Shown one piece after another: positions 2,378 to 33,519 of a stretch of DNA of 64,000 nucleotides (positions within the stretch are counted from its first letter, which is position 1; every line of letters starts with the position of its first letter). The notes below the pieces were generated by a model. That model was not told where the DNA came from, ran no database searches, and saw only the letters and a list, made by a program, of their open reading frames with translations. Source of the stretch: a virus. Taxonomy: Duplodnaviria; Caudoviricetes. The position numbers and the translations under genes are program-made. The stretch is from positions 96,001 to 160,000 of IMG/VR virus record IMGVR_UViG_3300049988_000124; one strand, 5' to 3'.

Positions 2378-3640
2378 CTATTGCTGTTGTTGGTGAAGTT
2401 CCCTCTGATGTGCCTCGACCGCAGTCACCCCGCCAGCTAACAGGAGCTTACGGGTCGTAGAACCGGAGATGGGATAGAAATAAGGAAGCGAGTACGTGGA
2501 CGGATCAACGTCGAACAGTTTAGCCATACCCTCGAACTCAGGTTTTCCTCCGAAAGTGACTTCTACGATCTTGTCGAAACGTCCTGGACGACGCAGCGCT
2601 GGATCAAGCTTTTCCAGATGATTGGTCGTCGCAATGATGATCAGCCCGTCGGGGGTGAGTAGTCCGTCGATACTGTTCAGGAGCGCTGACAAGGTAATGC
2701 CGTTTGCCGTTACGCGCTTTTGTTCCGCATCCTCATCCTCATCACGCTTCAAGGGTACGCCGCTGGCGTCGATATCTTCGATCACTAGAAAAGCGGTGGA
2801 CCAGTCGATCACCCCCGACAAGAGAGAGGACAGTTCGTTCACCTTGTTCAAGGTTAGGTAGAAGATCCGCCTACCGGTCTCTGATGCAATCGCGTGAATG
2901 AGCGACGACTTACCCGTACCAGGAGGTCCTGGCAGAAGGATACCGGTGTGGTTGGGTAGACCTTTGGCTAGATTGAACTCTCGCTTGCTCTCAAAATCCC
3001 TGACGAAGTCGACCAGTTCCTGACCCAAGTTATTGGGCAGAAAGATCGTGTCAATAGAGCGAAGTGGTAGGAGAATGCTGTTGCCCCATTTGTCCTGAGG
3101 AACGTTAGCACGAACGCGGACACCTGGTTCATCGACCTGCTTTGCCTCCACGAAGGCATCCATCTCATCTTTGAAATCAGCGATCAACGCTTTGGAATTG
3201 GTGATGAAGTTACAGGTGCAATATTCCTTAAACTTCTCCGACTGATTAGCAGTATCCTGCCGCCGGTAGATGATCACCAACCTTCGCTTGTAAAAACCAA
3301 TGTGAATACCGTAGCCGATCTCGATGTTGCGACTGGCTAATTCCGTTCGTCTGCGGCCACCAGGAAGTATGGTGACTTTCTCCGTTGACGAGAAAACGTA
3401 GTTGCGACTGAACCGATCACTGATGATCGTGTTGGTGATATACTCCATCGCCTCAGTAAAGATCAGCTGATCACTGTTGAAGCGCACCGTGAGTGTGGAC
3501 CGCCGTTTAATCCACAACCAGATGCGTAACGGAATTTGTCTGATGGTGTAGGTGATTAGGGCTGCGGGCATCGCCAGAATAGCCGCTGAGGCGAACTGAT
3601 TCGTCTTCAGCTGCGTGACGATGAAATCCCATAAACTCAT
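2378..3640 (-). CDS. BCS1-like AAA+ ATPase
   Basis: Walker A GPPGTGKS, Walker B FLVIEDID, ITLSALLNSIDG, IATTNHLEKLDPALRRPGRFD; N-terminal hydrophobic anchor and BCS1_N-like region. Confidence 0.85.
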   Translation of the reverse strand: MSLWDFIVTQLKTNQFASAAILAMPAALITYTIRQIPLRIWLWIKRRSTLTVRFNSDQLIFTEAMEYITNTIISDRFSRNYVFSSTEKVTILPGGRRRTELASRNIEIGYGIHIGFYKRRLVIIYRRQDTANQSEKFKEYCTCNFITNSKALIADFKDEMDAFVEAKQVDEPGVRVRANVPQDKWGNSILLPLRSIDTIFLPNNLGQELVDFVRDFESKREFNLAKGLPNHTGILLPGPPGTGKSSLIHAIASETGRRIFYLTLNKVNELSSLLSGVIDWSTAFLVIEDIDASGVPLKRDEDEDAEQKRVTANGITLSALLNSIDGLLTPDGLIIIATTNHLEKLDPALRRPGRFDKIVEVTFGGKPEFEGMAKLFDVDPSTYSLPYFYPISGSTTRKLLLAGGVTAVEAHQRELHQQQQ

Positions 3641-20847: not shown

Positions 20848-22809
20848 TCATTGACAAGCGAGACACTCATCATAGTCAATCTTCTTGTACTCAGTCTGGA
20901 TCTCAGCGCGATTACCACCAGTGGTCGTATCAGCACGCTGAATGGAGAAGGAGCGCAGGTAGTACATCGACTTGATACCGAGCTTCCAAGCCATCTCGTG
21001 GATCTTCCAAAGATCACGCTTGTGGCAATCAGGCGTCATCGCGATGTTCAGAGACTGCGATTGTGAGATGTAGGGAGTACGGTCGGCTGCAAGCTCGATC
21101 AGCCAACGCTGGTCAATCTCGAAGGACGTCTTATAGGTGAGTAGTTCATTCTCGTCGAGGAAGTCGAGATGCTGAACAGAGCCATTGTTATCAAGGATGC
21201 TATCCCAGACTACAGCGGTATTCTGACCCTTGGCTTCTAGAAGCTTCTCGAGGTGGAGGTTCTTTACCTTAAAGGAACCATCCAGCGTCTTTTGCGTGTA
21301 GACGTTAGCTGGGATCGCATCGATACCTGCTGACACACCACCACAGATGATGGAGACAGAAGCAGTAGGAGCAATCGCGGTCTTGTTAGAGAAGCGCTCC
21401 ATGATGCCGTGTTCATTTGCGTCAGGGCAAGCACCACGCTCTTCGGCAATGAGGCGTGAGGCTTCATTTACTTTGGCGTCGATGTGCTTGAACATCCTGA
21501 GGTTCCAGGACTTCGCCATGGCACCCTCGATGGGTAGACCCTTGCCCTGCAGGAAGCTGTGGAAGCCCATGACACCCAGGCCAACCGAACGCTCGCGCAT
21601 CGCTGAGTAGCGTGACTTCTCGAACTCAGGACCTGCATTGACGATGAAGTCTTCCAGCACGTTGTCGAGGAAGTACATGATGTCCAGGATGAACTGGGGA
21701 TCCTTGCTCCACTCTTCGAACTTCTCCAGATTGGTCTGGAAGAGGCAGCAGACAGCCGTGCGGTCAATGCCGTGGTGATCGCGCCCAGTTGGCAGCGTAA
21801 TCTCCACGCACAGGTTGCTGGTCTTGACGAGCAGACCCGACTTCTTGTGGTGCTCCGGAATGCGCTTGTTCACGTTGTCGATGAACAAGAGGTAAGGCTC
21901 ACCGTGCTCGAGACGCTCGATAAGGATAGCCTGCATCAGCTCACGGGCATCAACGGTCTCGACGACCTCGCCGGTCTTGGGGCAGATAAGCTCCCAACCG
22001 ATACCCTGCTGGACGGCTTCCATGAACGCATCGGGAATGGTAATCCCGTGGTGAAGGAAGAGAGCCTTGCGCTTGGGATCACCACCGGTGTCGTTGCGCA
22101 TGTGGATATAGGTGACGATCTCGGGATGGTTGATCGGCACGTAGACGGCAGCAGCGCCGCGACGGTTGGTCCCTTGCGAGATACAGGCGGTCAGCGAATC
22201 CATGACCTTGGTAAAGGAGAACGCACCGGAGGTCTTACCGTTCAGCTTGGCCTTGGCACCGATGCCGCGCACGTTGCCCCAGTAGGTACCGATACCACCA
22301 CCTGCAGCACCCATCCAGATGTTGTCGTTCCAGGTATCGACGATCCCACCCTTGCCCTTGAGCGAGTCATTGACTTCGTTCAGGAAGCACGAGATGAGGT
22401 TGCCCTTCATGTTGCCGCCATTCGACAGGATCGGTGTCGCAGGCATGCACCAGAGCTTGGAGATATAACCGTACATCCGCTGTGCATGGGCTGCATCATT
22501 GGCATAGTAGCGCACGCAATTGGCGAAGCGGTCCTGGGGTGTCTCATCCTCGATGAGGTAGCGGTCCTTCATGGTCGACAGACCAAAAGGCGTCAGGAGA
22601 CTGTTCATGCTATCATCAACGATGACCTGGGGAACAGGCATCGTGCGGGCGACCGCATTCTCGTTGTCACGAGCGTAGCGCTGGTTGCCCGTCAGTACGG
22701 ATTCGGCGACACTCGTGACCGACTTGGCGGCGACGTAGGTCGGCTCGTCGTAGGCAGCTGGAACGGAATCTGCGCTTGCAGGGTCGAAGGACCCACTGAA
22801 ATCCATCAT
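20848..22809 (-). CDS. nrdA: Class Ia ribonucleotide reductase alpha subunit (no ATP cone)
   Basis: PATPILSNGG, LISCFL, TSNLCVEI, AVCCL, RERSVGLGVMG, TAIAPTAS, SQSQSLN, KSMYYLR, C-terminal CLAC. Confidence 0.97.
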   Translation of the reverse strand: MMDFSGSFDPASADSVPAAYDEPTYVAAKSVTSVAESVLTGNQRYARDNENAVARTMPVPQVIVDDSMNSLLTPFGLSTMKDRYLIEDETPQDRFANCVRYYANDAAHAQRMYGYISKLWCMPATPILSNGGNMKGNLISCFLNEVNDSLKGKGGIVDTWNDNIWMGAAGGGIGTYWGNVRGIGAKAKLNGKTSGAFSFTKVMDSLTACISQGTNRRGAAAVYVPINHPEIVTYIHMRNDTGGDPKRKALFLHHGITIPDAFMEAVQQGIGWELICPKTGEVVETVDARELMQAILIERLEHGEPYLLFIDNVNKRIPEHHKKSGLLVKTSNLCVEITLPTGRDHHGIDRTAVCCLFQTNLEKFEEWSKDPQFILDIMYFLDNVLEDFIVNAGPEFEKSRYSAMRERSVGLGVMGFHSFLQGKGLPIEGAMAKSWNLRMFKHIDAKVNEASRLIAEERGACPDANEHGIMERFSNKTAIAPTASVSIICGGVSAGIDAIPANVYTQKTLDGSFKVKNLHLEKLLEAKGQNTAVVWDSILDNNGSVQHLDFLDENELLTYKTSFEIDQRWLIELAADRTPYISQSQSLNIAMTPDCHKRDLWKIHEMAWKLGIKSMYYLRSFSIQRADTTTGGNRAEIQTEYKKIDYDECLACQ

Positions 22810-22982
22810 AAAAAGTGTTCCGTTGCTTGTGTAAAAGGAAACTGGTAACCGGTTCTAAGAGAAGTATTCGGCATACAATCTAGCTCTTGAACCTGATCAC
22901 AAATTAGCCTCTTACTATGTCAAAATCGTCATGTCATGACACCCAAAAGCAACGTAAATATTTTCACTGAGCACCATTTCTT

Positions 22983-23246
22983 ATGGTTCCACAATGTTTA
23001 TACAACAGAGGATGGTTCGTTATGGTAATTTCACCCATCGCCACCGGGCGAAAGCAGTGGCAGGTCCATGTCGGCTGCTACGCTAAGCATGACTTGAGTG
23101 AATTGAGTAGGCACAGCTACGGTCCTTTCAAGCATCGCTGGATTGCAGCCATGGTCGGATGGTCTCTTTCCTGGGACTCATGTGGCGGAATCATCTGTAA
23201 CTACTGGACAGAAGAAGTACCATTGTCATCACTTGATGCTATGTAA
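22983..23246 (+). CDS. Possible small plus-strand protein
   Basis: 87 aa ORF (or a shorter form from MVISP) in the gap between nrdA and the next core gene; no motif. Confidence 0.4.
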   Translation: MVPQCLYNRGWFVMVISPIATGRKQWQVHVGCYAKHDLSELSRHSYGPFKHRWIAAMVGWSLSWDSCGGIICNYWTEEVPLSSLDAM

Positions 23247-23271
23247 AGGGCAAGCGGTGAGTATTTGATAC

Positions 23272-23433
23272 ATGATAGCAAGTATATTTAAAGTCGACTC
23301 TGAAACCAGGACTCCTAAAGAAGACTGGATCAGAGACGTTCAAGAATTTCAGATACTCAGTCGCGGCGGTGAAGCACCTGACAGTGCTGAATCTTTGTCA
23401 ATTGAATATGACAAACAAGTAGCAGCGTCTTAG
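23272..23433 (+). CDS. Possible small acidic protein (not in ORF track)
   Basis: Hand translation MIASIFKVDSETRTPKEDWIRDVQEFQILSRGGEAPDSAESLSIEYDKQVAAS (53 aa), ending just before the convergent hairpin at 23451. Confidence 0.4.
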   Translation: MIASIFKVDSETRTPKEDWIRDVQEFQILSRGGEAPDSAESLSIEYDKQVAAS

Positions 23434-24789: not shown

Positions 24790-27429
24790 TCAGTTGATCC
24801 CCATGACAGCCCGCAAGGTATTGGCCATCTCATCCTGGTTCACGGGACGCTGTGCCTGTTCTGCGGTGTTGGGGTTCACGAACCGACGAGGATCACGCTG
24901 AAGCTCATCAGCAGTGGTCGGGATCGGGACGGCTGAGCGGTCAACCATGGTGCCCAAGAACTTCAAATCAGCCTCGATGATCTTGCGCATGGCTGGATCA
25001 TGCGTGCGCTTGAGTGCGCTAGACAATTCCTCGATACGCTCGCGGATCTTGTTCTGCTTCTCCTCAATCAAATGAGCCTTGTCGTGCATGTTGGCACCAT
25101 TCAAGCTCATCACACTTCCTGGTTTAATACCGTAGAAGTCATGATGCTTGGCATGAAGAATGAACCAGAGTGCCAGGAGCCAGGCAACCGTGGTATCATC
25201 GTGGCCACCCACTGCATGGTCAACACGACCATTGCGCACCGTCAGGGAGTTCAGTTCACGAATGAGCGTCTGATCCTTGATGCGCGTCTGGGCACGCTCT
25301 GCTCCTTCGAGAAGAACATCACCGTAGAGCTTATCGCGGGCAGACTTATCGGTCTTGATACCAAAGTAGCGCTTGGCTTGTGTGTCGAGAAGATTCAAGT
25401 CACGAATGTCGAAGCGGGCATATTCTGCCTCGTGGCGATTGTTGGCAATCCAGTTAAAGATGCGGGTGAAAGGATTCTGCCCGTGCTTTCTCAAGAAAAG
25501 TGCCACGATGTCGATGAGCGAGGTACCTGAACTCTTATTCTCCGGGATCCAGACGATCTTGGGATATCTGAGCATCAAGTCTGCAATCATCACACCGAGC
25601 TTGTTGATGTTACCCTCAGTACAGTGGAAGGTGAACATCGTGTCCAGACTGCGTGGGTCAATACCCACGAGCGTGGTCGCATCTCGGCCGATCATCTCAG
25701 AAGAATCGCAACCAACAACGATGGACTTTTCCTTGAACGCGGCACTGCGTACTACTGATTCTGGAACGTACCAGTAGATGGCAAACTTATCGCTCAAGAT
25801 CTCGACCCAGTCAGGATCACGCTGACACTGGTTGATCATCGCCAGAACGTGCTTGGGAATGATCGGGGTCTCAGCAATCGACACGCGCTGGTTCAAGAAG
25901 TCGCGCTTCACCTGATCCTCAGTCATGCGACCACGGCGGATACGCTCGCGCAACCATTCATTGTCGTAGCCGAGCTGGAGGTGCGAGAACACACCCAGGA
26001 TCATCTTCTGCGGTGAGCGACCAGCAACCAGGTCATGGAGGATCTCACGATTCTCCACATCGTAGAGCTGCTCGGTAAAGGGCATCGCCCCCTCTAGGAT
26101 GGCGGCTGCCTCCTTACACGGCTGGGTCATGGGATCACCAGCGGTGGTCGTGATCAGGTTGGAGTGAGGCTTGCCGTTCTTCTTAGCGTTCTCACGCGCC
26201 GTAGAACCCGATGACATGATCGTCGGGTAAGACGTTCCGATGTTGGCGGTATACTCAAGCTCGTCCCAGTGGAACATGGGCATCGAGCCACCGCGACCCT
26301 GCTTATCGGCTGCTGCCTTCTCCTTCTGCGCCACGAACGTTTGATAGTGCGTGCGGTACTGGTTGTAGTAGATCTCCTCGGCGTTGAACTTGTCCTTGAA
26401 CTTGTCTTTGAGGAGCCACCAAGAGGGAAGGTTATCACCGAACGCCTTGACGCGCTTCACGTTCTCCTGGCGAAGATCGTTGTCCTTGGCCATCATGCCA
26501 ACGACGTACTCGAGGCCTGAGCTGTACATGATGGATGCGGTCAGACTCAGCGCACACACGGTGTTGTGGGTGACAATGTAGTCGTCGGTGATGTAGAGGT
26601 GGTCAGGGTGATCAATAACGATACACTGCGCTTCCTCATTGGCAACGAAGTCGTAGGACTCGATCTTAGCCCGGTCGATCTCAGGCGTGTTGGGGTCAGA
26701 TACCGGCAAGTAGATATCGAACCCGAAGTTCATGAGGTCATTCAACTCGAACACATCGTAGATGTCGTGCTCGGGGTGAACATAGGCTTTCCACATATGG
26801 TCAGCGGTTGACTCAGCACTGCGACCACCAGCAAGGTTGACCTTGAAGATGTCCTGCAAGCCTTGAGGATGGACCTCCAAGACCTTGGCTTCAGATCCAT
26901 CGGGTGTGATCACCCAGTGGTCCGTCGTGATCTCACCCATCGTTACCCAACCAACCGTGGTCAAGATACGAGCCCGCAACGGCTGGGGCTTACCAGTCTG
27001 GCGAGGCTGCATGGAGGTATAGTCAAGACCATTCAACCAGCACCAGGTCATGGCGCACGAACCACGGTCCAGACGGAAGGGCACAGGGTTACCACCCTGC
27101 TCGTAGATGCGCAGGCATTCACGAAGGAAGTACCAGGTGTTACGACGAGCCTCCACCTGCACCTTGGTGCGCAGGATGTTGTTCTCGGGCGTATTCTCCT
27201 CTAGCGCATGAACGTCAACATCGACGAGGTCAGGATCGTAGAGGGTGAGAGGAAAGGCGTAGTTCTTGATACCCATCCGCTTTAGCAGATGGCAAGTACG
27301 AAGGAATGACTCGTTCTTGGTGGTGGCGTGGGGGATGGCGCGCCAATGACCCTTGGGAGTCTTCCACTGGTTCTGGAAGGTGATAGCCATGATGGACTCG
27401 GTTTGTATAAAAAGATGACGGGGAGGCAT
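24790..27429 (-). CDS. terL: Terminase large subunit (phiKZ gp25-like) containing an intein
   Basis: VEARRNTWYFLRE, Walker A PRQTGK/T split by the intein, Walker B FHWDE, TTTAGD, nuclease motifs GCDSSE and GGHDDTTVAWLL; alternative start MAITFQ at 27390. Confidence 0.92.
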   Translation of the reverse strand: MPPRHLFIQTESIMAITFQNQWKTPKGHWRAIPHATTKNESFLRTCHLLKRMGIKNYAFPLTLYDPDLVDVDVHALEENTPENNILRTKVQVEARRNTWYFLRECLRIYEQGGNPVPFRLDRGSCAMTWCWLNGLDYTSMQPRQTGKPQPLRARILTTVGWVTMGEITTDHWVITPDGSEAKVLEVHPQGLQDIFKVNLAGGRSAESTADHMWKAYVHPEHDIYDVFELNDLMNFGFDIYLPVSDPNTPEIDRAKIESYDFVANEEAQCIVIDHPDHLYITDDYIVTHNTVCALSLTASIMYSSGLEYVVGMMAKDNDLRQENVKRVKAFGDNLPSWWLLKDKFKDKFNAEEIYYNQYRTHYQTFVAQKEKAAADKQGRGGSMPMFHWDELEYTANIGTSYPTIMSSGSTARENAKKNGKPHSNLITTTAGDPMTQPCKEAAAILEGAMPFTEQLYDVENREILHDLVAGRSPQKMILGVFSHLQLGYDNEWLRERIRRGRMTEDQVKRDFLNQRVSIAETPIIPKHVLAMINQCQRDPDWVEILSDKFAIYWYVPESVVRSAAFKEKSIVVGCDSSEMIGRDATTLVGIDPRSLDTMFTFHCTEGNINKLGVMIADLMLRYPKIVWIPENKSSGTSLIDIVALFLRKHGQNPFTRIFNWIANNRHEAEYARFDIRDLNLLDTQAKRYFGIKTDKSARDKLYGDVLLEGAERAQTRIKDQTLIRELNSLTVRNGRVDHAVGGHDDTTVAWLLALWFILHAKHHDFYGIKPGSVMSLNGANMHDKAHLIEEKQNKIRERIEELSSALKRTHDPAMRKIIEADLKFLGTMVDRSAVPIPTTADELQRDPRRFVNPNTAEQAQRPVNQDEMANTLRAVMGIN
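26563..26988 (-). mobile_element. Class 3 mini-intein (142 aa, no homing endonuclease) in TerL
   Basis: Begins PQPLRARILT..GW, block B STADHMW, block F AQCI, block G IVTHN followed by Thr; removing it restores PRQTGK-TVCALS. Confidence 0.9.
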
Positions 27430-27471: not shown

Positions 27472-27507
27472 CAGTGTAGAGAGAGCTTTCGCCCTCTCTA
27501 CACACTG
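27472..27507. terminator. Imperfect GA-arm hairpin
   Basis: CAGTGTAGAGAGAGC-TTTC-GCCCTCTCTACACACTG after the 27530 stop. Confidence 0.55.
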
Positions 27508-27529: not shown

Positions 27530-28156
27530 TTACGCCTTACGAGCGTCCTTGAAGCGAGAATCGGGTACTGCAACGTGTGAACCACGGTCCAGACGATCAC
27601 CCTCCTCAGCGGTCAGCAGACCGCGCTCTACGGCCTTCGAGACCATCCACTTGAAGTAATCATGGATAGCCTTGATCGGACCCGATGCATCCTCGGAGCG
27701 ATGCGTCATGTAGGAGGGAATGAACAGTGCGCCCTCGGTTCCCTTGATGATGGTCTCGGGAATGAGGTAGAAGTAAGCGAGGCCGTCGTAGACCACGTTG
27801 TCGAGCTGGATGCTGAGCTTGGCCTTCGTGGAGGTAAGCGCTGTCATCAGGTTGATGAGGGCACCGGGCGGAATGTCGGCCATGACCGAGAGCACGGTGA
27901 GACGAACGACGTTGGTCTCATTTAGACCAGCCAGCCAGATGGCAAGCTGCTGTGCTTCAGTCTCACCGTCCATGCAGTGACACACGTAGATAGTTGCATA
28001 GAACACGCCGTTATCAACAACGATGTTCAGAGGCTTGAAGTTACTGGGACCCTTCTGACCAGACCCCATGGTAAGGTCAGGGGTAAATGACTCCAGCGCC
28101 ATGCTGGTGTCTGATGCAGGGAGGTCATCGCCCCAAGGAATGATGTCGCCAATCAT
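27530..28156 (-). CDS. Catalytically inactive ClpP-fold protein (ClpR-like) with N-terminal propeptide
   Basis: Aligns by eye to the adjacent ClpP domain (LMTALTSTKAKL vs LISAINRTKAKV; GLLTAEE vs GLFTEAE) but lacks the catalytic Ser and His; has MALESF near the N-terminus; likely start MIGD at 28156. Confidence 0.6.
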   Translation of the reverse strand: MIGDIIPWGDDLPASDTSMALESFTPDLTMGSGQKGPSNFKPLNIVVDNGVFYATIYVCHCMDGETEAQQLAIWLAGLNETNVVRLTVLSVMADIPPGALINLMTALTSTKAKLSIQLDNVVYDGLAYFYLIPETIIKGTEGALFIPSYMTHRSEDASGPIKAIHDYFKWMVSKAVERGLLTAEEGDRLDRGSHVAVPDSRFKDARKA

Positions 28157-28180
28157 GATGTTGTATCCTAAAACAAACAA

Positions 28181-29338
28181 TTACGCGCCAGTGGTCTCGC
28201 CGCTGATTTCACCCACGCGACTGATGGCTTCACGCCCTGAGATGTAGACGTCCGACGACTTGTCAATCATGTCACGCATCTCAGCCTCGGTGAAGAGACC
28301 CGTCTTAACCAGCGTCTCCAAACGCTGCGTGATGTAGTTGACGCAGAACACGGCCTTGGCCTGAATGTCGGTGGTCTTACCAGCCAGGAGCTGCGATGAC
28401 ATGTGCTGCATGAAGTAAGCACCGGGACGAATCCGACGCTGATGTCCAGCAGCCCAGATTGCGGTAGCAGCCGATGCAACGCAGCCCTCAGCGATGGTGA
28501 TAACTTTGGCCTTGGTGCGATTGATCGCCGAGATCAGACGACCCATCAGAATCACTGACCCGCCGGGCGAAGCGATATGGATGTAGGCGGTGTCCTTCTC
28601 GGTAGCCATCTCCAAGATGCGACAGTAAATGTCGATCGGGTTCGACCACACGTCGTGGCAGAGGGCTGAGTAGAAGTACATGTGGTACTTGAACGCATTC
28701 TCACCAGCCACCGAGGTCTTGATCTTGGGACCCTTGGAGAGATCAGGGAGTTCGACAATCACACCACCGACCTCGTCGCGAGGTGCTGGCATGTCACCGC
28801 CGGGGCGGAAGAACGCCTGGATACCCTGAACCTTCTGGAAGCTCACACCCTTGCCGGTGAACTGCGAGGAGGGACGAATGGTGTTACCCTCACCCTTGAT
28901 CCAGCTAGCGAATGCCTCCGCTGTAAAGGTCGTGATCGCACCGATGCGATTACCGCCTGAGCCATCGGAGAAGACCTGGCTATAGGTGTGGATCACTTCA
29001 CCCACTGAGCTAAAGCCCAGCATGACCTTGTGCTCATCGAAATAGCCGGTCTGCGGATTGATCTGGTCAATGACGTAGATCTCACCCTTATCATCAGGAG
29101 AGGACGCCAGGTAGAAGTCGAGCTCTTCACCGTGTGAGTCAGTGGTACCCAGGATACGACCGTAAGCGACCGGGAACTCGTTGGCGATAACGATACCAGC
29201 GATTGTCTTGCGACGGATTTCGCCTGCGAGGAACTCGATCACCAGAGTCAGGCAACCGAAGGTATAAGGAACTTCTGTTTCCCAGTCATGGTCGAAGCTC
29301 GGCAGAGCCACGGGCGTAGTAGCAGATGCAGTGCGCAT
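28181..29338 (-). CDS. clpP: InPase-domain / ClpP protease fusion
   Basis: N-half YG.I.GT..G.ELD..L..VYVIDQ..G.FDEHKVMLGF matches the inorganic pyrophosphatase-like InPase domain of polyvalent proteins. C-half IHIASPGGSV, GCVASAAT (Ser), AYFMQH (His), SSDVYIS.REA (Asp) is ClpP-type. Confidence 0.8.
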   Translation of the reverse strand: MRTASATTPVALPSFDHDWETEVPYTFGCLTLVIEFLAGEIRRKTIAGIVIANEFPVAYGRILGTTDSHGEELDFYLASSPDDKGEIYVIDQINPQTGYFDEHKVMLGFSSVGEVIHTYSQVFSDGSGGNRIGAITTFTAEAFASWIKGEGNTIRPSSQFTGKGVSFQKVQGIQAFFRPGGDMPAPRDEVGGVIVELPDLSKGPKIKTSVAGENAFKYHMYFYSALCHDVWSNPIDIYCRILEMATEKDTAYIHIASPGGSVILMGRLISAINRTKAKVITIAEGCVASAATAIWAAGHQRRIRPGAYFMQHMSSQLLAGKTTDIQAKAVFCVNYITQRLETLVKTGLFTEAEMRDMIDKSSDVYISGREAISRVGEISGETTGA

Positions 29339-29419
29339 GAACTAATCTTTCTTCGTGTAAAAAGATACCAAGCCTTGGTTAAGGGCTCAAACAAGTGTGC
29401 ATAACATTTCGCTAGAACA

Positions 29420-29449
29420 TACCTAGGAGGGCATCAGCCCTCCTAGGTA
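29420..29449. terminator. GA-arm hairpin
   Basis: TACCTAGGAGGGC-ATCA-GCCCTCCTAGGTA. Confidence 0.75.
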
Positions 29450-29457
29450 CATGAGTC

Positions 29458-30732
29458 TTAGTGACCTGCCAGACGCAGGAGAACAGAAGCGATCAGATGG
29501 TAACCACCACCGATGTAGGTCTTAGCCAGACGATAGGTCGCCCAGAAGAGACTGGTGATGATCGTGTGCGAGACACGCTTGGAGACACCGGGGACCTGAA
29601 GAGCCTCGGTGGCAGCCACGTCCTTGGCACTGCTCAGATAAGTCGTTGCACCCTTCACGAAGGTAGCGATAGCCGACTGTACCTTACCCGTCACTGTGAT
29701 GATGTTGTTGCTCAGCGAGACGATGTTCTGCTGTGTCCAACCGAGCTCCTGGAGGGTCCCAACGGTTGGGACATCACCCACCATATGGGCAGCTCCTGCC
29801 TTCTCGGCATGGAACTTGGCTGTGCGGTAAAGAGCATTAACCTCGACTTGTGCTTTGGACACGCCGTGTACATTAACACCCTGAAGAAGTTTATCTGCGC
29901 CCGCGTTGTCGAATTTGGTAAACATGGAGAAGCCGCGTGCTGACCCGTCAGCACTTTGTGTTTTGTTTACCAACTGCTGTGCTTCGAAAATGATCTTCTC
30001 GATGTCAGCATTGTGCTGACCCAGACGCTGGCCAATGAGCGCAATAGCAGCTGCAGCTGCAGCAATGCCACCGACTGCAATCAGAGCAGACTTATAGGGA
30101 TGCGCCTTGATGGTGCGACCGACGGACTTGGTCGTGTCGGCAACCTTCTGTGCCGCTACCTTCGCTGAAGCTACGATCTTTCCGCTGACGTCCTTGAAAG
30201 AGATATCACCGATGCGCTTGACGAAGTTCAAGATCTTGACTGACCAGGCAGCAGCCTTGTCCTTGATCTTGTCCATGATGCCCTCAAGGGCCATCTTCGA
30301 CTGATAGTCCTCAGGACCAGCAGCGGCCATGTCCTCGACAGCGATCGAGGCAAGTGACGTACCAGCCAGGAGGTTGGTGGCCTGCATCATGCCGAACGAG
30401 GCAGGGCTCACGCCGTGCGCTTCGATGACGTCGCACGCACCGTTCAGCTGATCGATCTCGTTGGTCAGCTGGAAGAGCTCATTGCCCTCGTCCTGCATCT
30501 GCTCATCGAGCGAGGGAAGGCTCTCCAGACCAGCCTCATCCATCGCATCAATCTGAGCGAGCACAGCGTCGTGCTGCGACATGATGTCCATCGACTCGAG
30601 ACCCAGGTTGTCTCCTGAGACCTTGTCGTGGTTAATGAAGGCGATCAGCTGAGCCGAAGGACCCATCGCTGCGGTGATCGCCTTATACGCCAGGCCCATT
30701 TCCTGGCGCTCGAGAGCTTGTTCAAATGACAT
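29458..30732 (-). CDS. Inner-head/ejection protein with long acidic propeptide (paralog 1)
   Basis: Repeated maturation motifs LGLES, AGLES, IAVED and MALEG in an acidic N-terminus; directly follows the head protease gene; likely start MSFEQ at 30732. Confidence 0.7.
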   Translation of the reverse strand: MSFEQALERQEMGLAYKAITAAMGPSAQLIAFINHDKVSGDNLGLESMDIMSQHDAVLAQIDAMDEAGLESLPSLDEQMQDEGNELFQLTNEIDQLNGACDVIEAHGVSPASFGMMQATNLLAGTSLASIAVEDMAAAGPEDYQSKMALEGIMDKIKDKAAAWSVKILNFVKRIGDISFKDVSGKIVASAKVAAQKVADTTKSVGRTIKAHPYKSALIAVGGIAAAAAAIALIGQRLGQHNADIEKIIFEAQQLVNKTQSADGSARGFSMFTKFDNAGADKLLQGVNVHGVSKAQVEVNALYRTAKFHAEKAGAAHMVGDVPTVGTLQELGWTQQNIVSLSNNIITVTGKVQSAIATFVKGATTYLSSAKDVAATEALQVPGVSKRVSHTIITSLFWATYRLAKTYIGGGYHLIASVLLRLAGH

Positions 30733-30736
30733 GGTA

Positions 30737-31585
30737 TTAGATTTCCTTGAAGAAGTCGTTGAGGATCCCACGGGTGTAGAGACCCGGGAAGCGATCCATC
30801 ATGGAAGGATCGGGCTTGACAATCGTGGTCGACTGAATGATGCGTGCCACATCACAGGTACCGAACAGTTCGTTCAGGTCACTGTTGTGGAAGCTCTCCA
30901 GCGCTACCTGGTCGATGACGAGGTTGCCGTTCTCCGTGATGTTAACGCTGCACTCGAGGTGATTGTCGGAAGCAAAGGACTCCAGACCAATCGCGTTTGC
31001 CTTGTCAGTCGTCGCATAGCCCGAGGGACCAACGGTGTCGAAGGTGGTGAGCGAGCGCACCGTGCGGTACTTCAGACCATTGGGTTTCACCTGCGTATCA
31101 ACGTAGGCACGAAGTGAGAAGGCGGTGTTCAGGATCGGATCATCAAGGCTGTCCTTGAAGACCTGACCCATGGGTCCGGTAGGCTTTACATTGGCCCGGA
31201 GCACGACGGGTGTTCCAGGGCGAGCATTGTCGTCGGTGTAGAAAGATGTAAAAAGATGCGAGATATTGCGTTCGTCAATCATGGTGAGGCGCTGAAGCTT
31301 CTCACCGTCACTTAGCCCGAGGAAGCTCGGGTGACCGTACTCGCCGTAGGCCTTCTGCTGCGAGAAGATCTTGGCGAACCGGGATTCAGGATTGGTGATC
31401 TGGTTCATGATCGAGGTCGGGTCGTAGTAGGTACGCTGCTGCGTTTCCTCACCCAAGACCATCATCGGTAGACCAGAGTAGATACCGTTGTCGTCGGGGC
31501 GGATGGTACCGACCCGGTTGTTGCGGCGAACGTAGAGTGTTTCCACTCGGAACGAGATGTTCCTTGGAATAGCAAAACTAGACAT
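30737..31585 (-). CDS. Prohead maturation protease (phiKZ gp175 / SPN3US gp245-like)
   Basis: AYGEYGHP, NISH, VKPTGPMG, NTAFSLR and TFDTV..G; C-terminal self-cleavage-like GLES and ALES motifs. Confidence 0.88.
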   Translation of the reverse strand: MSSFAIPRNISFRVETLYVRRNNRVGTIRPDDNGIYSGLPMMVLGEETQQRTYYDPTSIMNQITNPESRFAKIFSQQKAYGEYGHPSFLGLSDGEKLQRLTMIDERNISHLFTSFYTDDNARPGTPVVLRANVKPTGPMGQVFKDSLDDPILNTAFSLRAYVDTQVKPNGLKYRTVRSLTTFDTVGPSGYATTDKANAIGLESFASDNHLECSVNITENGNLVIDQVALESFHNSDLNELFGTCDVARIIQSTTIVKPDPSMMDRFPGLYTRGILNDFFKEI

Positions 31586-31657
31586 GGTATCCTTCTATAT
31601 TCGAATCCTCCTAGGACAAGCACGTCCTGGGCTTTACATAAGATTTAGTGAATACCC

Positions 31658-31685
31658 ACACAGGGAGGCATTTGCCTCCCTGTGT
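31658..31685. terminator. GA-arm hairpin
   Basis: ACACAGGGAGGCA-TT-TGCCTCCCTGTGT. Confidence 0.75.
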
Positions 31686-31696
31686 AAGCATCGTTG

Positions 31697-32434
31697 TTAC
31701 TTCTGATTGGCAAGTTTAGGGGCAATCTTCTTCAGCAATGCCTCTGCCTGATCGGCTGATCCAGCACCGGTGGTGTCCATCCCGTGCATGAGATGAATAG
31801 TGCGGTTGATGATCGCTTCGATCTTGGCCTTGTCCTCGCCAGCATCAGCGAGTGACGCACGCGCAGCAGCGAGCTTTGCCTGGTGACTGGTAACAGTATC
31901 CTTGCTCTGCTTTTGTGCGTTCTTGGTCCAAGCAACAGCCGTGTTGTAATTGGCCTGATTCCAACCGGACGATTCGATATCCTTGGCACCTTTACCCACG
32001 ATGTGATTGTTGACCTCGGAGAGGTTCTTGAAGTACGTCTCCTGGCTATCCTCAACCTTCTTCTCGAACGCTTCCCATGCTTTAAGGTCAGCCTTGGCTG
32101 GTACCTTGTTCAGGACCGCGTTCAGATAGTTGATCGTGTGCGTGTGAAAGTTCTGGAAACTCACGAACTCGCTGCGAAGAGGAATCTTCTCACCGAACAA
32201 CTTGCTAAGGAGACCCTCGATCGCCAGATGCATGCTGGTATCAGTGCCGATGTGTTCAACGATCTGCTCATGCTGATCCATGATGTTGAACGACTCGAGA
32301 CCCAGTGAGTCGGGAGTAACGCGGTCGTAGTTTACGAATGCCACGAGCTGAGGCGACGGACCCATCTGCGTGGTGATCCGCTGATAGGCACGGCCCATGC
32401 GGTAGCGCTGGTATAGTGAATTGAAGTCAGACAT
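31697..32434 (-). CDS. Inner-head protein (paralog 2)
   Basis: Shared N-terminal module MG.AY..IT..MGPS.QLVAFVNYD.V..SLGLESF.IMDQHE, then LAIEG. Confidence 0.7.
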   Translation of the reverse strand: MSDFNSLYQRYRMGRAYQRITTQMGPSPQLVAFVNYDRVTPDSLGLESFNIMDQHEQIVEHIGTDTSMHLAIEGLLSKLFGEKIPLRSEFVSFQNFHTHTINYLNAVLNKVPAKADLKAWEAFEKKVEDSQETYFKNLSEVNNHIVGKGAKDIESSGWNQANYNTAVAWTKNAQKQSKDTVTSHQAKLAAARASLADAGEDKAKIEAIINRTIHLMHGMDTTGAGSADQAEALLKKIAPKLANQK

Positions 32435-32475
32435 TGAGGGTACCTTCTACTTGTTTCTTGTCTGCTGACGGACTG

Positions 32476-33519
32476 TTACTTGTGATTGATCTCGTAGTGC
32501 CGTGAGACATGAATCATCGACTTGTACAGCCAATGCTCAATCTTAATAATGAGAGCGACTGCGTCGCTGACACATTTACTGGCTTTGTTCATCGAGACAA
32601 GAACGTGAGCCGGAACCATCTTCATCAGCGCTTCGTGCTGAGAGCGACGGTTCTGACGCGCCATTTCATTGGTTGCCGACCGTGCTGCATGCTCTACCCA
32701 GTTACGATTCTTGTGATCGTCTCCTCCCCTGGAAAAGCTGGTGGCAACGTTCATGACGTCAGATTGGCGGCTGTACGAATCCCACCTCTGCTGATGTTGC
32801 GAGGCTTTGATGAGCAGAAGAAGCTTGGCCATCTGGTCGCACGTATCAGTGACTCGGTCAGCGTAGGTGTGATACTTATCCTGCGAGACAGCGATTGCCT
32901 TCAGTGTTCCTTTGAAGGTCGCAACATTCCACCCACCCTTGGCGAAGTCATCTTCCTTACCAAAGTCCTCGAATGCTGCGGCATTGCGCTCGGTATTGCG
33001 AATGTGGGCACCGAGCTGACTCGAGCCAGAGTTCTGGATGTGCGCTTTGTAGAATTTCTCCCACGCATCACCGTCCGTACCACCCGGGATCTTGGGAAGA
33101 ATGAAATCAAGCGTCTTGAACGCATCGTCGATGTAGCGAAGCGCTCGCTCTGCTTGACCCTTCGAGATCGTGTAGATGTTGCTGCTCTTCTCACTAAGAG
33201 GCTCACGCATCATGTCGGTGAGGTTGTCGGCACGGTTGAACGTGATCTTGTTCTTGAACCGCTCCGCCACTGACTTCAGGCGACCCATGAAGCTCTCGCA
33301 CGCCATGTTCATTGACGGGTCTGCGAGAATCTCAGCAACGATAGCTTCGTGCTGATCCATGATGTCGAATGATTCAAGACCGATTGACTCACCCGTCACC
33401 TTGTCGTAATTGACAAAAGCAACGAGATGATGCGAGGGTCCCAGCTGGGCGGTAATTGACAGGTAAGCCATACCCATCGCGTAACGATCAACTAGGGCAT
33501 CGGTAACTGGGTCACTCAT
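32476..33519 (-). CDS. Inner-head protein (paralog 3)
   Basis: Same N-terminal module (IGLESFDIMDQHE), then MACES. Confidence 0.7.
   Translation of the reverse strand: MSDPVTDALVDRYAMGMAYLSITAQLGPSHHLVAFVNYDKVTGESIGLESFDIMDQHEAIVAEILADPSMNMACESFMGRLKSVAERFKNKITFNRADNLTDMMREPLSEKSSNIYTISKGQAERALRYIDDAFKTLDFILPKIPGGTDGDAWEKFYKAHIQNSGSSQLGAHIRNTERNAAAFEDFGKEDDFAKGGWNVATFKGTLKAIAVSQDKYHTYADRVTDTCDQMAKLLLLIKASQHQQRWDSYSRQSDVMNVATSFSRGGDDHKNRNWVEHAARSATNEMARQNRRSQHEALMKMVPAHVLVSMNKASKCVSDAVALIIKIEHWLYKSMIHVSRHYEINHK

What the first reader, a model, noticed from the sequence alone, without database searches (positions are those of the whole stretch)
27530..29338. Two-gene ClpP module: InPase-ClpP fusion plus a catalytically dead ClpP paralog carrying a head-maturation motif
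Seen: 28181..29338 joins an N-terminal domain (YGRILGT..ELDFY..VIDQ..GYFDEHKVMLGF) to a ClpP domain with an intact Ser/His/Asp pattern (VASAA, FMQH, SSDVY). The next gene aligns by eye to the same ClpP fold (STKAKL/RTKAKV, GLLTAEE/GLFTEAE), but the catalytic Ser and His positions are replaced, and its short N-extension ends in MALESF, the same motif found in the neighbouring inner-head proteins. Established: the FDEHKVMLGF domain is the InPase domain of phage/plasmid polyvalent proteins, many of which are injected with the DNA, and ClpP plus inactive ClpR subunits form mixed rings in plastids and cyanobacteria. Inference: the phage may package a hetero-oligomeric ClpP/ClpR-like protease, licensed by the head protease, with an attached InPase-fold domain that could act as sensor or substrate recruiter and be delivered at infection. 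I know of no description of this architecture.
Basis: partly seen in the sequence, partly recalled or inferred. Interest (0 to 1): 0.78.

Follow-up and report, generated by a model that had tools for sequence, protein, structure and literature searches.

The report
Phage pyrophosphatase-ClpP with dead partner
An uncultured phiKZ-like giant phage from leaf metagenomes carries, inside its head-gene block, a two-gene unit: a pyrophosphatase-like domain fused to an intact ClpP-type protease, followed by a catalytically dead ClpP copy that bears the head-protease cutting motif; it is probably a capsid-packaged protease complex, which no paper in the searched library describes, although parts of it occur in cultured phages.

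Summary
Gene 28181-29338(-) is a true InPase (PF18823) + ClpP (PF00574) fusion. Ser289 and His312 are invariant and Asp363 is about 90% conserved across 25 aligned homologues. The next gene most likely starts at the ATG at 28156, not the TTG at 28180. It has a ClpP fold (VIA-align Z 11.5; top 50 entries all ClpP) and is related to the neighbour's ClpP domain (hhalign E 8e-6), but it has lost the Ser, the His and the SPGG motif.

Its disordered N-terminus ends in A-L-E|S-F. That motif occurs only 13 times in the 308-kb genome, 7 of them in this head block.

New here:
- The pair is adjacent in every relative examined.
- One relative encodes ClpP and pseudo-ClpP as a single polypeptide with S-T-E-S-F in the linker.
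- A complex prediction supports binding (0.64 against 0.00 for controls).
- A strain variant shows almost only synonymous changes.

The claim "no description" is only partly right. InPase-ClpP fusions exist in cultured Cellulophaga and Tenacibaculum phages, and this scan already reported the same module in another genome. Packaging, cleavage and ejection are inferred, not shown. Verdict: a real, conserved new variant of a known kind. Interest 0.55.

The parts
28181..29338 (-). Gene for the InPase-ClpP fusion protein (385 aa; TAA stop at 28181-28183)
   Evidence: ORF. Pfam InPase + CLP_protease. At least 75 homologues carry both domains. 27 synonymous against 1 non-synonymous change in a strain variant.
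28895..29260 (-). InPase (type I pyrophosphatase-like, OB-fold) domain, aa 27-148
   Evidence: PF18823 E 6e-23. Invariant Y59, G60, D74, D91, Q92, D101, E102, H103, K104; E71 at least 90% conserved. In the canonical D-G-D-P-x-D block, the first Asp is His69 and the second is Glu71.
28724..28894 (-). Inter-domain linker, aa 149-205; low model confidence; contains a conserved D-E-x-G-G-V block
   Evidence: AF2 pLDDT 50-64 at aa 170-200. Alignment A2.
28199..28723 (-). ClpP-type serine protease domain, aa 206-380, with SPGG, Ser289, His312 and Asp363
   Evidence: PF00574 E 1e-13. Foldseek to solved ClpP, E 6e-11. Conservation. NCBIfam best hit is the ClpP-related head maturation protease, 50.6 bits, below its cut-off of 120.
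28166..28169 (-). AGGA ribosome-binding site, 9 nt before the ATG at 28156
   Evidence: Sequence read directly.
27530..28156 (-). Gene for the catalytically dead ClpP-fold partner (208 aa from the ATG at 28156). Same reading frame as the fusion, 24 nt after its TAA
   Evidence: ORF. Start. Homologue family. ClpP fold at Z 11.5. hhalign to the fusion's ClpP domain, E 8e-6. 9 synonymous against 2 non-synonymous changes in the variant.
28091..28156 (-). Predicted propeptide, aa 1-22, ending A20-L21-E22, with the presumed cut before S23. The A-L-E-S-F motif lies at 28085-28099
   Evidence: pLDDT below 50 for residues 1-36. L21, E22 and S23 at least 90% conserved. 24 of 43 family representatives carry the motif. 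Motif distribution in the genome.
27533..28048 (-). ClpP-fold domain of the partner, aa 37-208. D124, S148 and H194 occupy the Ser, His and Asp positions
29422..29447 (-). 11-bp stem-loop between the upstream head gene and the fusion gene
   Evidence: Sequence read directly. In the variant strain the only changes here lie in the loop.
27474..27503 (-). 13-bp stem-loop (terminator-like) just downstream of the partner gene, before the terminase gene
30737..31585 (-). Context: Peptidase S80 (phiKZ gp175-type) prohead protease, the presumed enzyme that cuts the motif. It carries two copies of the motif itself
   Evidence: PF20034 E 7e-34. phrog_3014. Motifs at 30988 and 30904.
24790..27429 (-). 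Context: large terminase gene (intein-interrupted), next gene downstream
   Evidence: phrog_2 E 3.5e-27. Same gene order in relatives.

Best explanation
The two genes encode the subunits of one ClpP-family protease complex that belongs to the phage head.

Subunit A is an intact Ser-His-Asp ClpP domain carrying an N-terminal pyrophosphatase-like (InPase) domain on a flexible linker. Subunit B is a ClpP-fold protein that has lost the catalytic residues and the oxyanion-hole motif, so it plays a ClpR-like structural role.

B is made with a roughly 22-residue disordered N-terminal propeptide ending in A-L-E|S-F. This is the same S/A/G-x-E site that marks the neighbouring inner-head proteins and the S80 (gp175-type) prohead protease itself.

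Most likely sequence of events:
1. A and B co-assemble laterally, as ClpP subunits do.
2. The complex is taken into the prohead with the other processed head proteins.
3. The S80 protease trims B.
4. The complex then works without an ATPase as a peptidase on unfolded or cleaved polypeptides.
5. The InPase domains are carried along as capsid cargo. Like other InPase domains of portal, minor-head and polyvalent proteins, they are most likely meant for the host cytoplasm or early infection compartment, where they would hydrolyse PPi or a nucleotide-like compound.

Shown: the domain identities, the loss of catalytic residues in B, conservation of the motif, gene linkage, the natural single-chain form, and purifying selection.

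Inferred: assembly, packaging, cleavage, the substrates, and ejection.
For: - Domain identity: Pfam, AF2 with Foldseek and VIA-align, hhalign between the two families.
- Active site: kept in A across 25 homologues down to 32% identity, lost in B.
- Gene order: S80 protease, then fusion, then partner, then terminase. This order is conserved in a relative whose fusion protein is 38-40% identical (L001) and in a 25.6-kb Logan contig. The same order up to the contig end is seen in L005, and the partner lies directly downstream of the fusion in L012.
- Single-chain form: P0110, directly after an S80 protease gene on a 190-kb contig, joins ClpP (aa 38-236; hhalign 99.5%) and pseudo-ClpP (aa 296-479; 96.3%) in one chain, with S-T-E-S-F at aa 246-250 in the linker.
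- Complex prediction: score 0.64 (runs 0.60-0.68) against a best control of 0.00. That mark was reached by 58 of 80 solved complexes and 2 of 110 mismatched pairs. Runs agree in at least 86% of contacts, and the partner's pLDDT is at least 83. A like complex (ClpP1P2) is solved, so part of the pass may reflect likeness.
- Motif: 13 in the genome, 7 in the head block. It is present near the N-terminus of 24 of 43 family representatives, including very divergent ones.
- InPase in capsid proteins: solved portal gp19 (9b41_L) has a C-terminal InPase domain. PHROG hits include a minor head protein, a virion structural protein and DarB-like proteins. Iyer et al. 2017 (PMC5512222) argue that InPase domains are packaged.
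- The Cellulophaga phiST homologue is annotated as a virion structural protein.
- Strain variant: 27 synonymous to 1 non-synonymous change in A; 9 to 2 in B, with both replacements in the propeptide and the A-L-E-S-F core kept.
- No ClpX/ClpA-type AAA_2 domain in the complete phage genome.
Against: - There is no experimental evidence of any kind. No cultured phage with this pair was found in the phage collection.
- The fusion protein itself has no conserved S/A/G-x-E site or recognisable targeting peptide, so its packaging depends on the inferred binding to B.
- A distant sub-clade (L001/P0119; P0098-P0107) keeps the pair next to the S80 protease but lacks B's N-terminal motif.
- A ClpP-type ring cannot pass a tail channel intact, so ejection would need disassembly.
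- Only a 1:1 pair was modelled. Mixed rings, separate rings or no ring cannot be told apart.
- The first Asp of the pyrophosphatase signature is His in this clade, so PPase activity is not assured.
Confidence: 0.6

Rival explanations
1. A cytoplasmic host-takeover protease. The phage ClpP works in the infected cell with the host's ClpX or ClpA to degrade host or defence proteins. The dead copy tunes ring composition, and the position among the head genes is incidental.
For: Iyer et al. 2021 (PMC7824862) list ClpP as the most prominent patchily distributed peptidase of jumbo phages and suggest it is deployed against the host. Other jumbo phages carry Clp genes outside head modules: Xoo-sp13 beside its ligase and primase, and BONAISHI ORF86/87 beside a helicase and RNAP genes. 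The triad is intact.
Against: Matches to ClpP profiles start only at position 39 of 182 (Pfam) or 26 of 165 (NCBIfam), and the score against the ClpP equivalogue is 28 bits against a cut-off of 308. About 200 residues (InPase plus linker) sit on the N-terminal face that an unfoldase would dock on. Synteny with the S80 protease and terminase is strict. The partner carries the head-protease motif, which also lies in the linker of the fused form. The BONAISHI pair is not detectably related to this one.
Confidence: 0.2
2. An auxiliary maturation peptidase only. The complex acts inside the prohead to shred the propeptides released by the S80 protease, is then itself degraded or expelled, and is never delivered to the host. 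The InPase domain is a structural or vestigial appendage.
For: The best NCBIfam and several PHROG matches of the ClpP domain are ClpP-related head maturation proteases. In Cellulophaga-type phages the InPase-ClpP protein sits between the gene preceding it in the head block (portal-like by position only) and the capsid-like gene, where a prohead protease-scaffold gene usually lies. ClpP cores are known to degrade short unfolded peptides without ATP (established knowledge).
Against: The near-invariant InPase residues argue that this domain is under selection for its own activity, and that activity has no obvious substrate inside a capsid. The phiST homologue is annotated as a virion, not prohead-only, protein (basis of that annotation not checked).
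Confidence: 0.15
3. No complex. The second protein is an independent processed head protein that merely descends from a duplicated ClpP gene and no longer binds the fusion protein.
For: Sequence similarity between the two is very low (BLASTP E 0.56). A pass in the complex prediction can come from likeness to solved ClpP assemblies (caveat).
Against: The genes are adjacent in every locus examined and fused in one lineage. The predicted interface is reproducible, with controls at 0.00.
Confidence: 0.05

Closest known systems
Cellulophaga phage phiST CGPG_00081 (YP_007673462.1) and its homologues in phi13:1, phi19:2 and Tenacibaculum phage Larrie (phrog_20705)
   Same: N-terminal InPase domain followed by a ClpP-family protease domain in the same order. 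Encoded in the head-gene block. Annotated as a virion structural protein.
   Different: These are ~77-79-kb phages, not phiKZ-like. The protein is about 600-690 aa, with a roughly 260-aa C-terminal extension that is unrelated to the dead partner. There is no separate pseudo-ClpP gene and no S80 protease. Only about 25% identity to the window protein.
ClpP/ClpR mixed cores of cyanobacteria and plastids, and ClpP1P2 of actinobacteria
   Same: An active ClpP subunit combined with a paralogous subunit in one core. In ClpR the catalytic residues are lost (established knowledge). Solved ClpP1, ClpP1P2 and Chlamydomonas Clp core chains are among the best structural matches of the partner.
   Different: No detectable sequence relationship to ClpR. 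The phage proteins lack the canonical N-terminal region. The active subunit carries an InPase domain. The inactive one has a propeptide with a phage head-protease site. The stoichiometry and ring type are unknown.
phiKZ gp175 / SPN3US gp245 (Peptidase S80) substrates: head and inner-body proteins processed at S/A/G-x-E
   Same: The partner's N-terminus ends in A-L-E|S. The same motif is found in the adjacent inner-head paralogues and in the S80 protease. The gene lies in the same block.
   Different: No protease or pseudo-protease is among the described substrates, to my knowledge. Cleavage has not been tested here.
InPase domains of phage polyvalent, portal and minor-head proteins (Iyer et al. 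2017, PMC5512222; solved portal gp19, PDB 9b41)
   Same: The same Pfam family (PF18823) and a capsid-associated context.
   Different: This is a small two-domain protein, not a multi-effector giant. The partner domain is a ClpP protease, a combination not mentioned in that paper (0 occurrences of ClpP).
Vibrio phage BONAISHI ORF86/ORF87 (adjacent Clp-annotated genes)
   Same: Two adjacent Clp-annotated genes in a roughly 289-kb phage.
   Different: Located beside helicase and RNAP genes, not the head protease. No InPase domain. ORF86 shows no similarity to the partner family, and ORF87 only a weak generic ClpP similarity.

Membership tests
Pfam CLP_protease (PF00574) / MEROPS S14 ClpP family: fusion protein | Sequence match above the family's gathering score | tested here: met
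   51.9 bits against a cut-off of 20.2, aa 241-372.
Pfam CLP_protease (PF00574) / MEROPS S14 ClpP family: fusion protein | Ser-His-Asp triad and SPGG oxyanion-hole motif | tested here: met
   S289 and H312 invariant, D363 at least 90% conserved, SPGG present in 25 homologues.
Bona fide ATP-dependent ClpP (TIGR00493 equivalogue) | Score above the curated equivalogue cut-off; canonical N-terminal axial region | tested here: not met
   28.2 bits against a cut-off of 308.6. Profile matches begin at position 39-59.
Bona fide ATP-dependent ClpP | Works with a ClpX/ClpA-type unfoldase; forms a tetradecamer | not testable with these tools
   The phage genome has no AAA_2 domain. Only a 1:1 pair was modelled.
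ClpP-related head maturation protease (NF045542) | Score above the curated cut-off | tested here: not met
   This is the best NCBIfam hit, but at 50.6 bits against a cut-off of 120.
InPase (PF18823) | Sequence match above the gathering score | tested here: met
   81.6 bits against a cut-off of 26.8.
InPase (PF18823) | Conserved acidic metal-binding residues | tested here: inconclusive
   E71, D74, D91 and D101 are conserved, but the first Asp of the D-x-D-x-x-D block is His69 in this clade. Activity is untested.
ClpR-like inactive ClpP paralogue: second protein | ClpP fold | tested here: met
   VIA-align Z 11.5, rmsd 3.6, 155 aligned residues; top 50 entries all ClpP. hhalign E 8e-6 to the neighbour's ClpP domain.
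ClpR-like inactive ClpP paralogue: second protein | Loss of catalytic residues | tested here: met
   Ser to D124, His to S148, SPGG lost. The replacements are not conserved in the wider family.
ClpR-like inactive ClpP paralogue: second protein | Co-assembly with an active ClpP subunit | tested here: inconclusive
   Prediction score 0.64 against a best control of 0.00. A natural single-chain form exists. There is no experiment.
ClpR-like inactive ClpP paralogue: second protein | Common descent with cyanobacterial or plastid ClpR | tested here: not met
   No Pfam or NCBIfam Clp hit at all. Its nearest detectable relative is the phage's own ClpP domain.
Substrates of the S80 (gp175-type) prohead protease | S/A/G-x-E site near the N-terminus, gene in the head module | tested here: met
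   A20-L21-E22|S23. Conserved in 24 of 43 representatives. 7 of the genome's 13 motifs lie in the head block.
Substrates of the S80 (gp175-type) prohead protease | Actual cleavage and presence in virions | not testable with these tools
   The phage is uncultured, and no proteome is available.
Polyvalent proteins (Iyer et al. 2017) | Large multi-domain protein combining several effector domains, usually with a processing peptidase | tested here: inconclusive
   Only two domains in 385 aa. It shares the InPase domain and the capsid context but not the size or domain multiplicity.

The most novel reading that the evidence does not exclude
A self-compartmentalising ClpP/pseudo-ClpP protease decorated with pyrophosphatase domains is a bona fide capsid cargo of a clade of phiKZ-like phages. 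Entry would be licensed by the head protease acting on the dead subunit's propeptide. The complex would then be ejected with the DNA and virion RNA polymerase and act in the first minutes of infection, clearing PPi or nucleotide signals and degrading host or defence polypeptides. This would be the first packaged and injected Clp-type protease.
Probability: 0.25. Interest if true: 0.8.

Novelty: new variant of a known kind. Interest (0 to 1): 0.55.

Why it matters
If the complex is packaged, it adds a chambered protease and a pyrophosphatase to the enzymes that giant phages carry in the capsid. It would also give a second, independently evolved case of a ClpP core that needs a dead subunit, alongside the plastid and cyanobacterial ClpP/ClpR cores. 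The dead subunit's propeptide, and the same motif in the linker of the single-chain form, offer a simple handle for studying how phiKZ-like proheads choose and process their cargo. The InPase domain could bear on how the injected virion RNA polymerase is supported in early infection. If the complex is not packaged, it is still a conserved, undescribed phage Clp system that may act on host proteins.

Tried and rejected
- Nucleotide search of the stretch against the phage collection found no match.
- tblastn of the partner against phages found no match.
- A word-based scan of IMG/VR with the partner alignment found no relative. With the fusion alignment it found one full-length homologue (L012); the rest were InPase-only hits in other proteins.
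- I considered stop-codon read-through joining the two in-frame ORFs and rejected it. The stop is TAA. An AGGA plus ATG follows. In L001 the partner gene overlaps the fusion gene by 4 nt in another frame. The TAA is kept in an independent sample and in a variant strain.
- I considered a permuted triad in the partner (D124, S148, H194) and rejected it. H194 is absent in 2 of 10 close homologues, and none of the three residues is kept in distant members.
- The C-terminal extension of the Cellulophaga-type fusion is not a hidden pseudo-ClpP.
- The Clp gene of Xanthomonas phage Xoo-sp13 lies in a replication context and is not this module.
- A search for a phage-encoded Clp unfoldase found no AAA_2 domain. 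The three PF00004 AAA proteins are a BCS1-like protein and two short AAA proteins far away, with no link to the module.
- No RNA holder was listed among the public runs, so expression was not assessed.
- A literature search for InPase together with ClpP found 0 papers. A search for a paper on the portal-InPase structure found none.
Full report
**Setting.** The window is part of a 307,821-bp IMG/VR virus record that CheckV rates as 100% complete. It is a very distant, uncultured relative of phiKZ-like phages. It has a Peptidase S80 (gp175-type) prohead protease at 30737-31585(-) (PF20034, E 7e-34). That protease's best matches in cultured phages, such as Erwinia Ea35-70 and Pseudomonas PhiPA3, are at most 33% identical. 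The stretch itself is held by leaf metagenomes from at least two studies. The two genes of the finding lie on the minus strand. Upstream are the block of inner-head paralogues and the S80 protease. Downstream is the intein-containing large terminase. Stem-loops at 29422-29447 and 27474-27503 bracket the pair.

**The fusion.** Gene 28181-29338(-) encodes 385 aa.
- Pfam finds InPase (aa 27-148, E 6e-23) and CLP_protease (aa 241-372, E 1e-13), both above their curated cut-offs.
- The AF2 model (pLDDT 84.5) shows two well-folded domains joined by a low-confidence linker.
- Foldseek matches the C-terminal domain to solved ClpP at E 6e-11, TM 0.72 and rmsd 2.8.
- At least 75 homologues carry both Pfam domains. 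Most come from metagenomic contigs, several of 250-300 kb.
- In an alignment of 25 homologues, down to 32% identity, the ClpP nucleophile S289 and base H312 are invariant. D363 is at least 90% conserved and the SPGG motif is present.
- The InPase block keeps Y59, G60, E71, D74, D91, Q92, D101, E102, H103 and K104. A pairwise alignment with a more canonical InPase shows that the D-G-D-P-x-D signature reads H-G-E-E-L-D here. The domain therefore probably still binds metal, but its activity is not assured.
- Against NCBIfam the protease domain scores best with the ClpP-related head maturation protease model (50.6 bits, cut-off 120). It reaches only 28 bits against the ClpP equivalogue (cut-off 308.6). 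It is a divergent member of the ClpP family. It cannot be filed as a true ATP-dependent ClpP or as a known prohead protease.

**The partner.** The listed ORF starts at the TTG at 28180, but that is only the first codon after the fusion's TAA, in the same frame. An AGGA lies 9 nt before the ATG at 28156, which gives a 208-aa protein. In a variant strain the Met of M-A-L-E-S-F is Ile, which excludes that Met as the start.
- The protein has no hit in Pfam, PHROGs or NCBIfam, and BLASTP against the fusion is not significant.
- It does have a family: 10 close homologues and 34 representatives in an exhaustive profile search.
- The AF2 model (pLDDT 77, residues 1-36 disordered) hits the ClpP/crotonase superfamily in Foldseek. 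Re-ranked by VIA-align, it gives Z 11.5 over almost the full length of ClpP, and all 50 listed entries are ClpP.
- The catalytic Ser, His and Asp positions are D124, S148 and H194, and SPGG is lost. In the wider family these positions vary freely. So it is a pseudo-protease and not a permuted triad.

**The motif.** The partner's disordered N-terminus ends in A20-L21-E22|S23-F24. L21, E22 and S23 are at least 90% conserved among close homologues.
- [SAG]LES[FL] occurs six times in all six-frame ORFs of the window. Every copy is in the minus-strand genes 27530-33519, and two are in the S80 protease itself.
- Genome-wide, [SAG]LES[FLM] occurs 13 times, 7 of them in the head block. Four of the other six sit in the N-terminal part (residues 14-188) of ORFs of 468-748 aa.
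- A looser form is present near the N-terminus in 24 of 43 family representatives. These include very divergent ones at E 1e-4 to 1e-6.
- This fits the S/A/G-x-E specificity described for phiKZ gp175 (established knowledge; not re-read here).

**Linkage of the two genes.**
- The order S80 protease, fusion, partner, terminase recurs in a relative whose fusion protein is 38-40% identical (a 299,677-bp contig, L001) and in a 25.6-kb Logan contig.
- The S80 protease, fusion and partner recur in that order in L005, and the fusion and partner are adjacent in L012.
- Seven further pairs share contigs by length.
- The most telling relative is P0110, on a 190-kb contig directly after an S80 protease gene. 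It has a ClpP domain (aa 38-236; hhalign 99.5% to the fusion family; Ser and His present) and a pseudo-ClpP domain (aa 296-479; 96.3% to the partner family) in one 505-aa chain, without InPase. S-T-E-S-F lies at aa 246-250 in the linker.
- So ClpP plus pseudo-ClpP is the conserved core, InPase is an addition, and the motif sits exactly where a cut would separate the two subunits.

**Assembly.** A complex prediction of the fusion's ClpP domain with the partner's folded domain scored 0.64 (runs 0.60-0.68) against 0.00 for the best of three controls. That mark was reached by 58 of 80 solved complexes and 2 of 110 mismatched pairs. The runs agree in at least 86% of contacts, and the partner's pLDDT is at least 83. 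The contacts involve head-domain helices 228-244 and 262-274 of the fusion and the beta-sheet edge of the partner. I read this as a side-by-side ClpP-like contact, but I could not inspect the coordinates. Solved ClpP1P2 and ClpP/R cores exist, so the pass may partly reflect likeness. It supports binding but does not show it.

**Selection.** Contigs from an independent sample are identical across the junction. A roughly 96%-identical variant keeps the TAA between the genes. Its differences are 27 synonymous to 1 non-synonymous in the fusion. In the partner they are 9 to 2, with both replacements in the propeptide and outside the A-L-E-S-F core.

**What is already known.**
- InPase was defined in phage polyvalent proteins, and its authors argued that it is packaged. 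They do not mention ClpP (PMC5512222).
- A solved portal (9b41, gp19) carries a C-terminal InPase domain.
- The InPase-then-ClpP domain order also exists in proteins of 600-690 aa from cultured Cellulophaga phages phiST, phi13:1 and phi19:2 and from Tenacibaculum phage Larrie. There the gene lies in the head block and is annotated as a virion structural protein, a tail protein or simply ClpP. Their C-terminal extension is not a pseudo-ClpP.
- Jumbo-phage ClpP has been noted as a probable anti-host peptidase (PMC7824862).
- No paper in the library holds both InPase and ClpP.
- This scan had already described the same module in another genome (note e1-5325168). My results agree with it independently. 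They add the single-chain form with the motif in its linker, the genome-wide motif count, the complex prediction and the strain-variant data.

**Mechanism and rivals.** I judge a head-associated two-subunit ClpP-type protease, taken into the prohead and trimmed by the S80 protease, as the most likely reading (0.6). Whether it then clears peptides in the head, is ejected to act in the host, or both, is open. The conserved InPase residues favour a role after ejection.
- The main rival is a cytoplasmic Clp core working with host unfoldases (0.2). Three things weaken it: the missing canonical N-terminal region, the bulky N-terminal fusion, and the strict head-module linkage with the protease motif.
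- Against the licensing idea, a distant sub-clade keeps the pair but not the motif, and the fusion protein itself has no conserved site.

**Verdict.** The module is a new variant of known kinds (ClpP/ClpR-type cores; InPase capsid cargo; S80 substrates). Interest 0.55.

Noticed in passing
window 28156-28183: The fusion gene and its partner are in the same reading frame, separated by TAA plus 24 nt. A relative (P0110 on L003) has the two ClpP-type domains in one open frame. Either a stop was gained here or lost there.
   Followed up: partly
window 2378-3640 (-): A 420-aa protein with BCS1_N (E 2e-7) plus AAA (E 5e-20) domains, that is, a BCS1-like AAA ATPase in a phiKZ-like phage. BCS1 moves folded proteins across a membrane, which could matter in a phage that builds internal compartments.
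   Followed up: no
own genome G000:C1 at 33800 (+, 748-aa ORF), 52418 (-, 594 aa), 198014 (-, 468 aa), 218430 (-, 603 aa): Four large ORFs outside the window carry [SAG]LES[FL] in the N-terminal part of the ORF (ORF residues 14-188). They are candidates for further S80 protease substrates (virion proteins).
   Followed up: no
PDB 9b41 chain L (gp19 portal, 765 aa), residues 635-760: A solved phage portal protein carries a C-terminal InPase domain (E 3e-26 to a metagenomic InPase-ClpP protein). I found no paper about it in the library.
   Followed up: partly
L092 (Vibrio phage BONAISHI MH595538.1) 22277-23340: Two adjacent Clp-annotated genes (ORF86, ORF87) next to helicase and RNAP genes. ORF86 has no detectable similarity to the partner family here, so this looks like an independent Clp pair.
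   Followed up: partly
window 29422-29447 and 27474-27503: Strong stem-loops (11 and 13 bp) bracket the two-gene unit. In the variant strain the only changes in the upstream one fall in its loop.
   Followed up: no
L003 9691-11619 and the Logan contig: In relatives a class I ribonucleotide reductase lies near the module: directly after it in L003, where no terminase was recognised, and two genes after it, beyond the terminase-sized gene, in the Logan contig. Gene order around the module is therefore not fully fixed.
   Followed up: no
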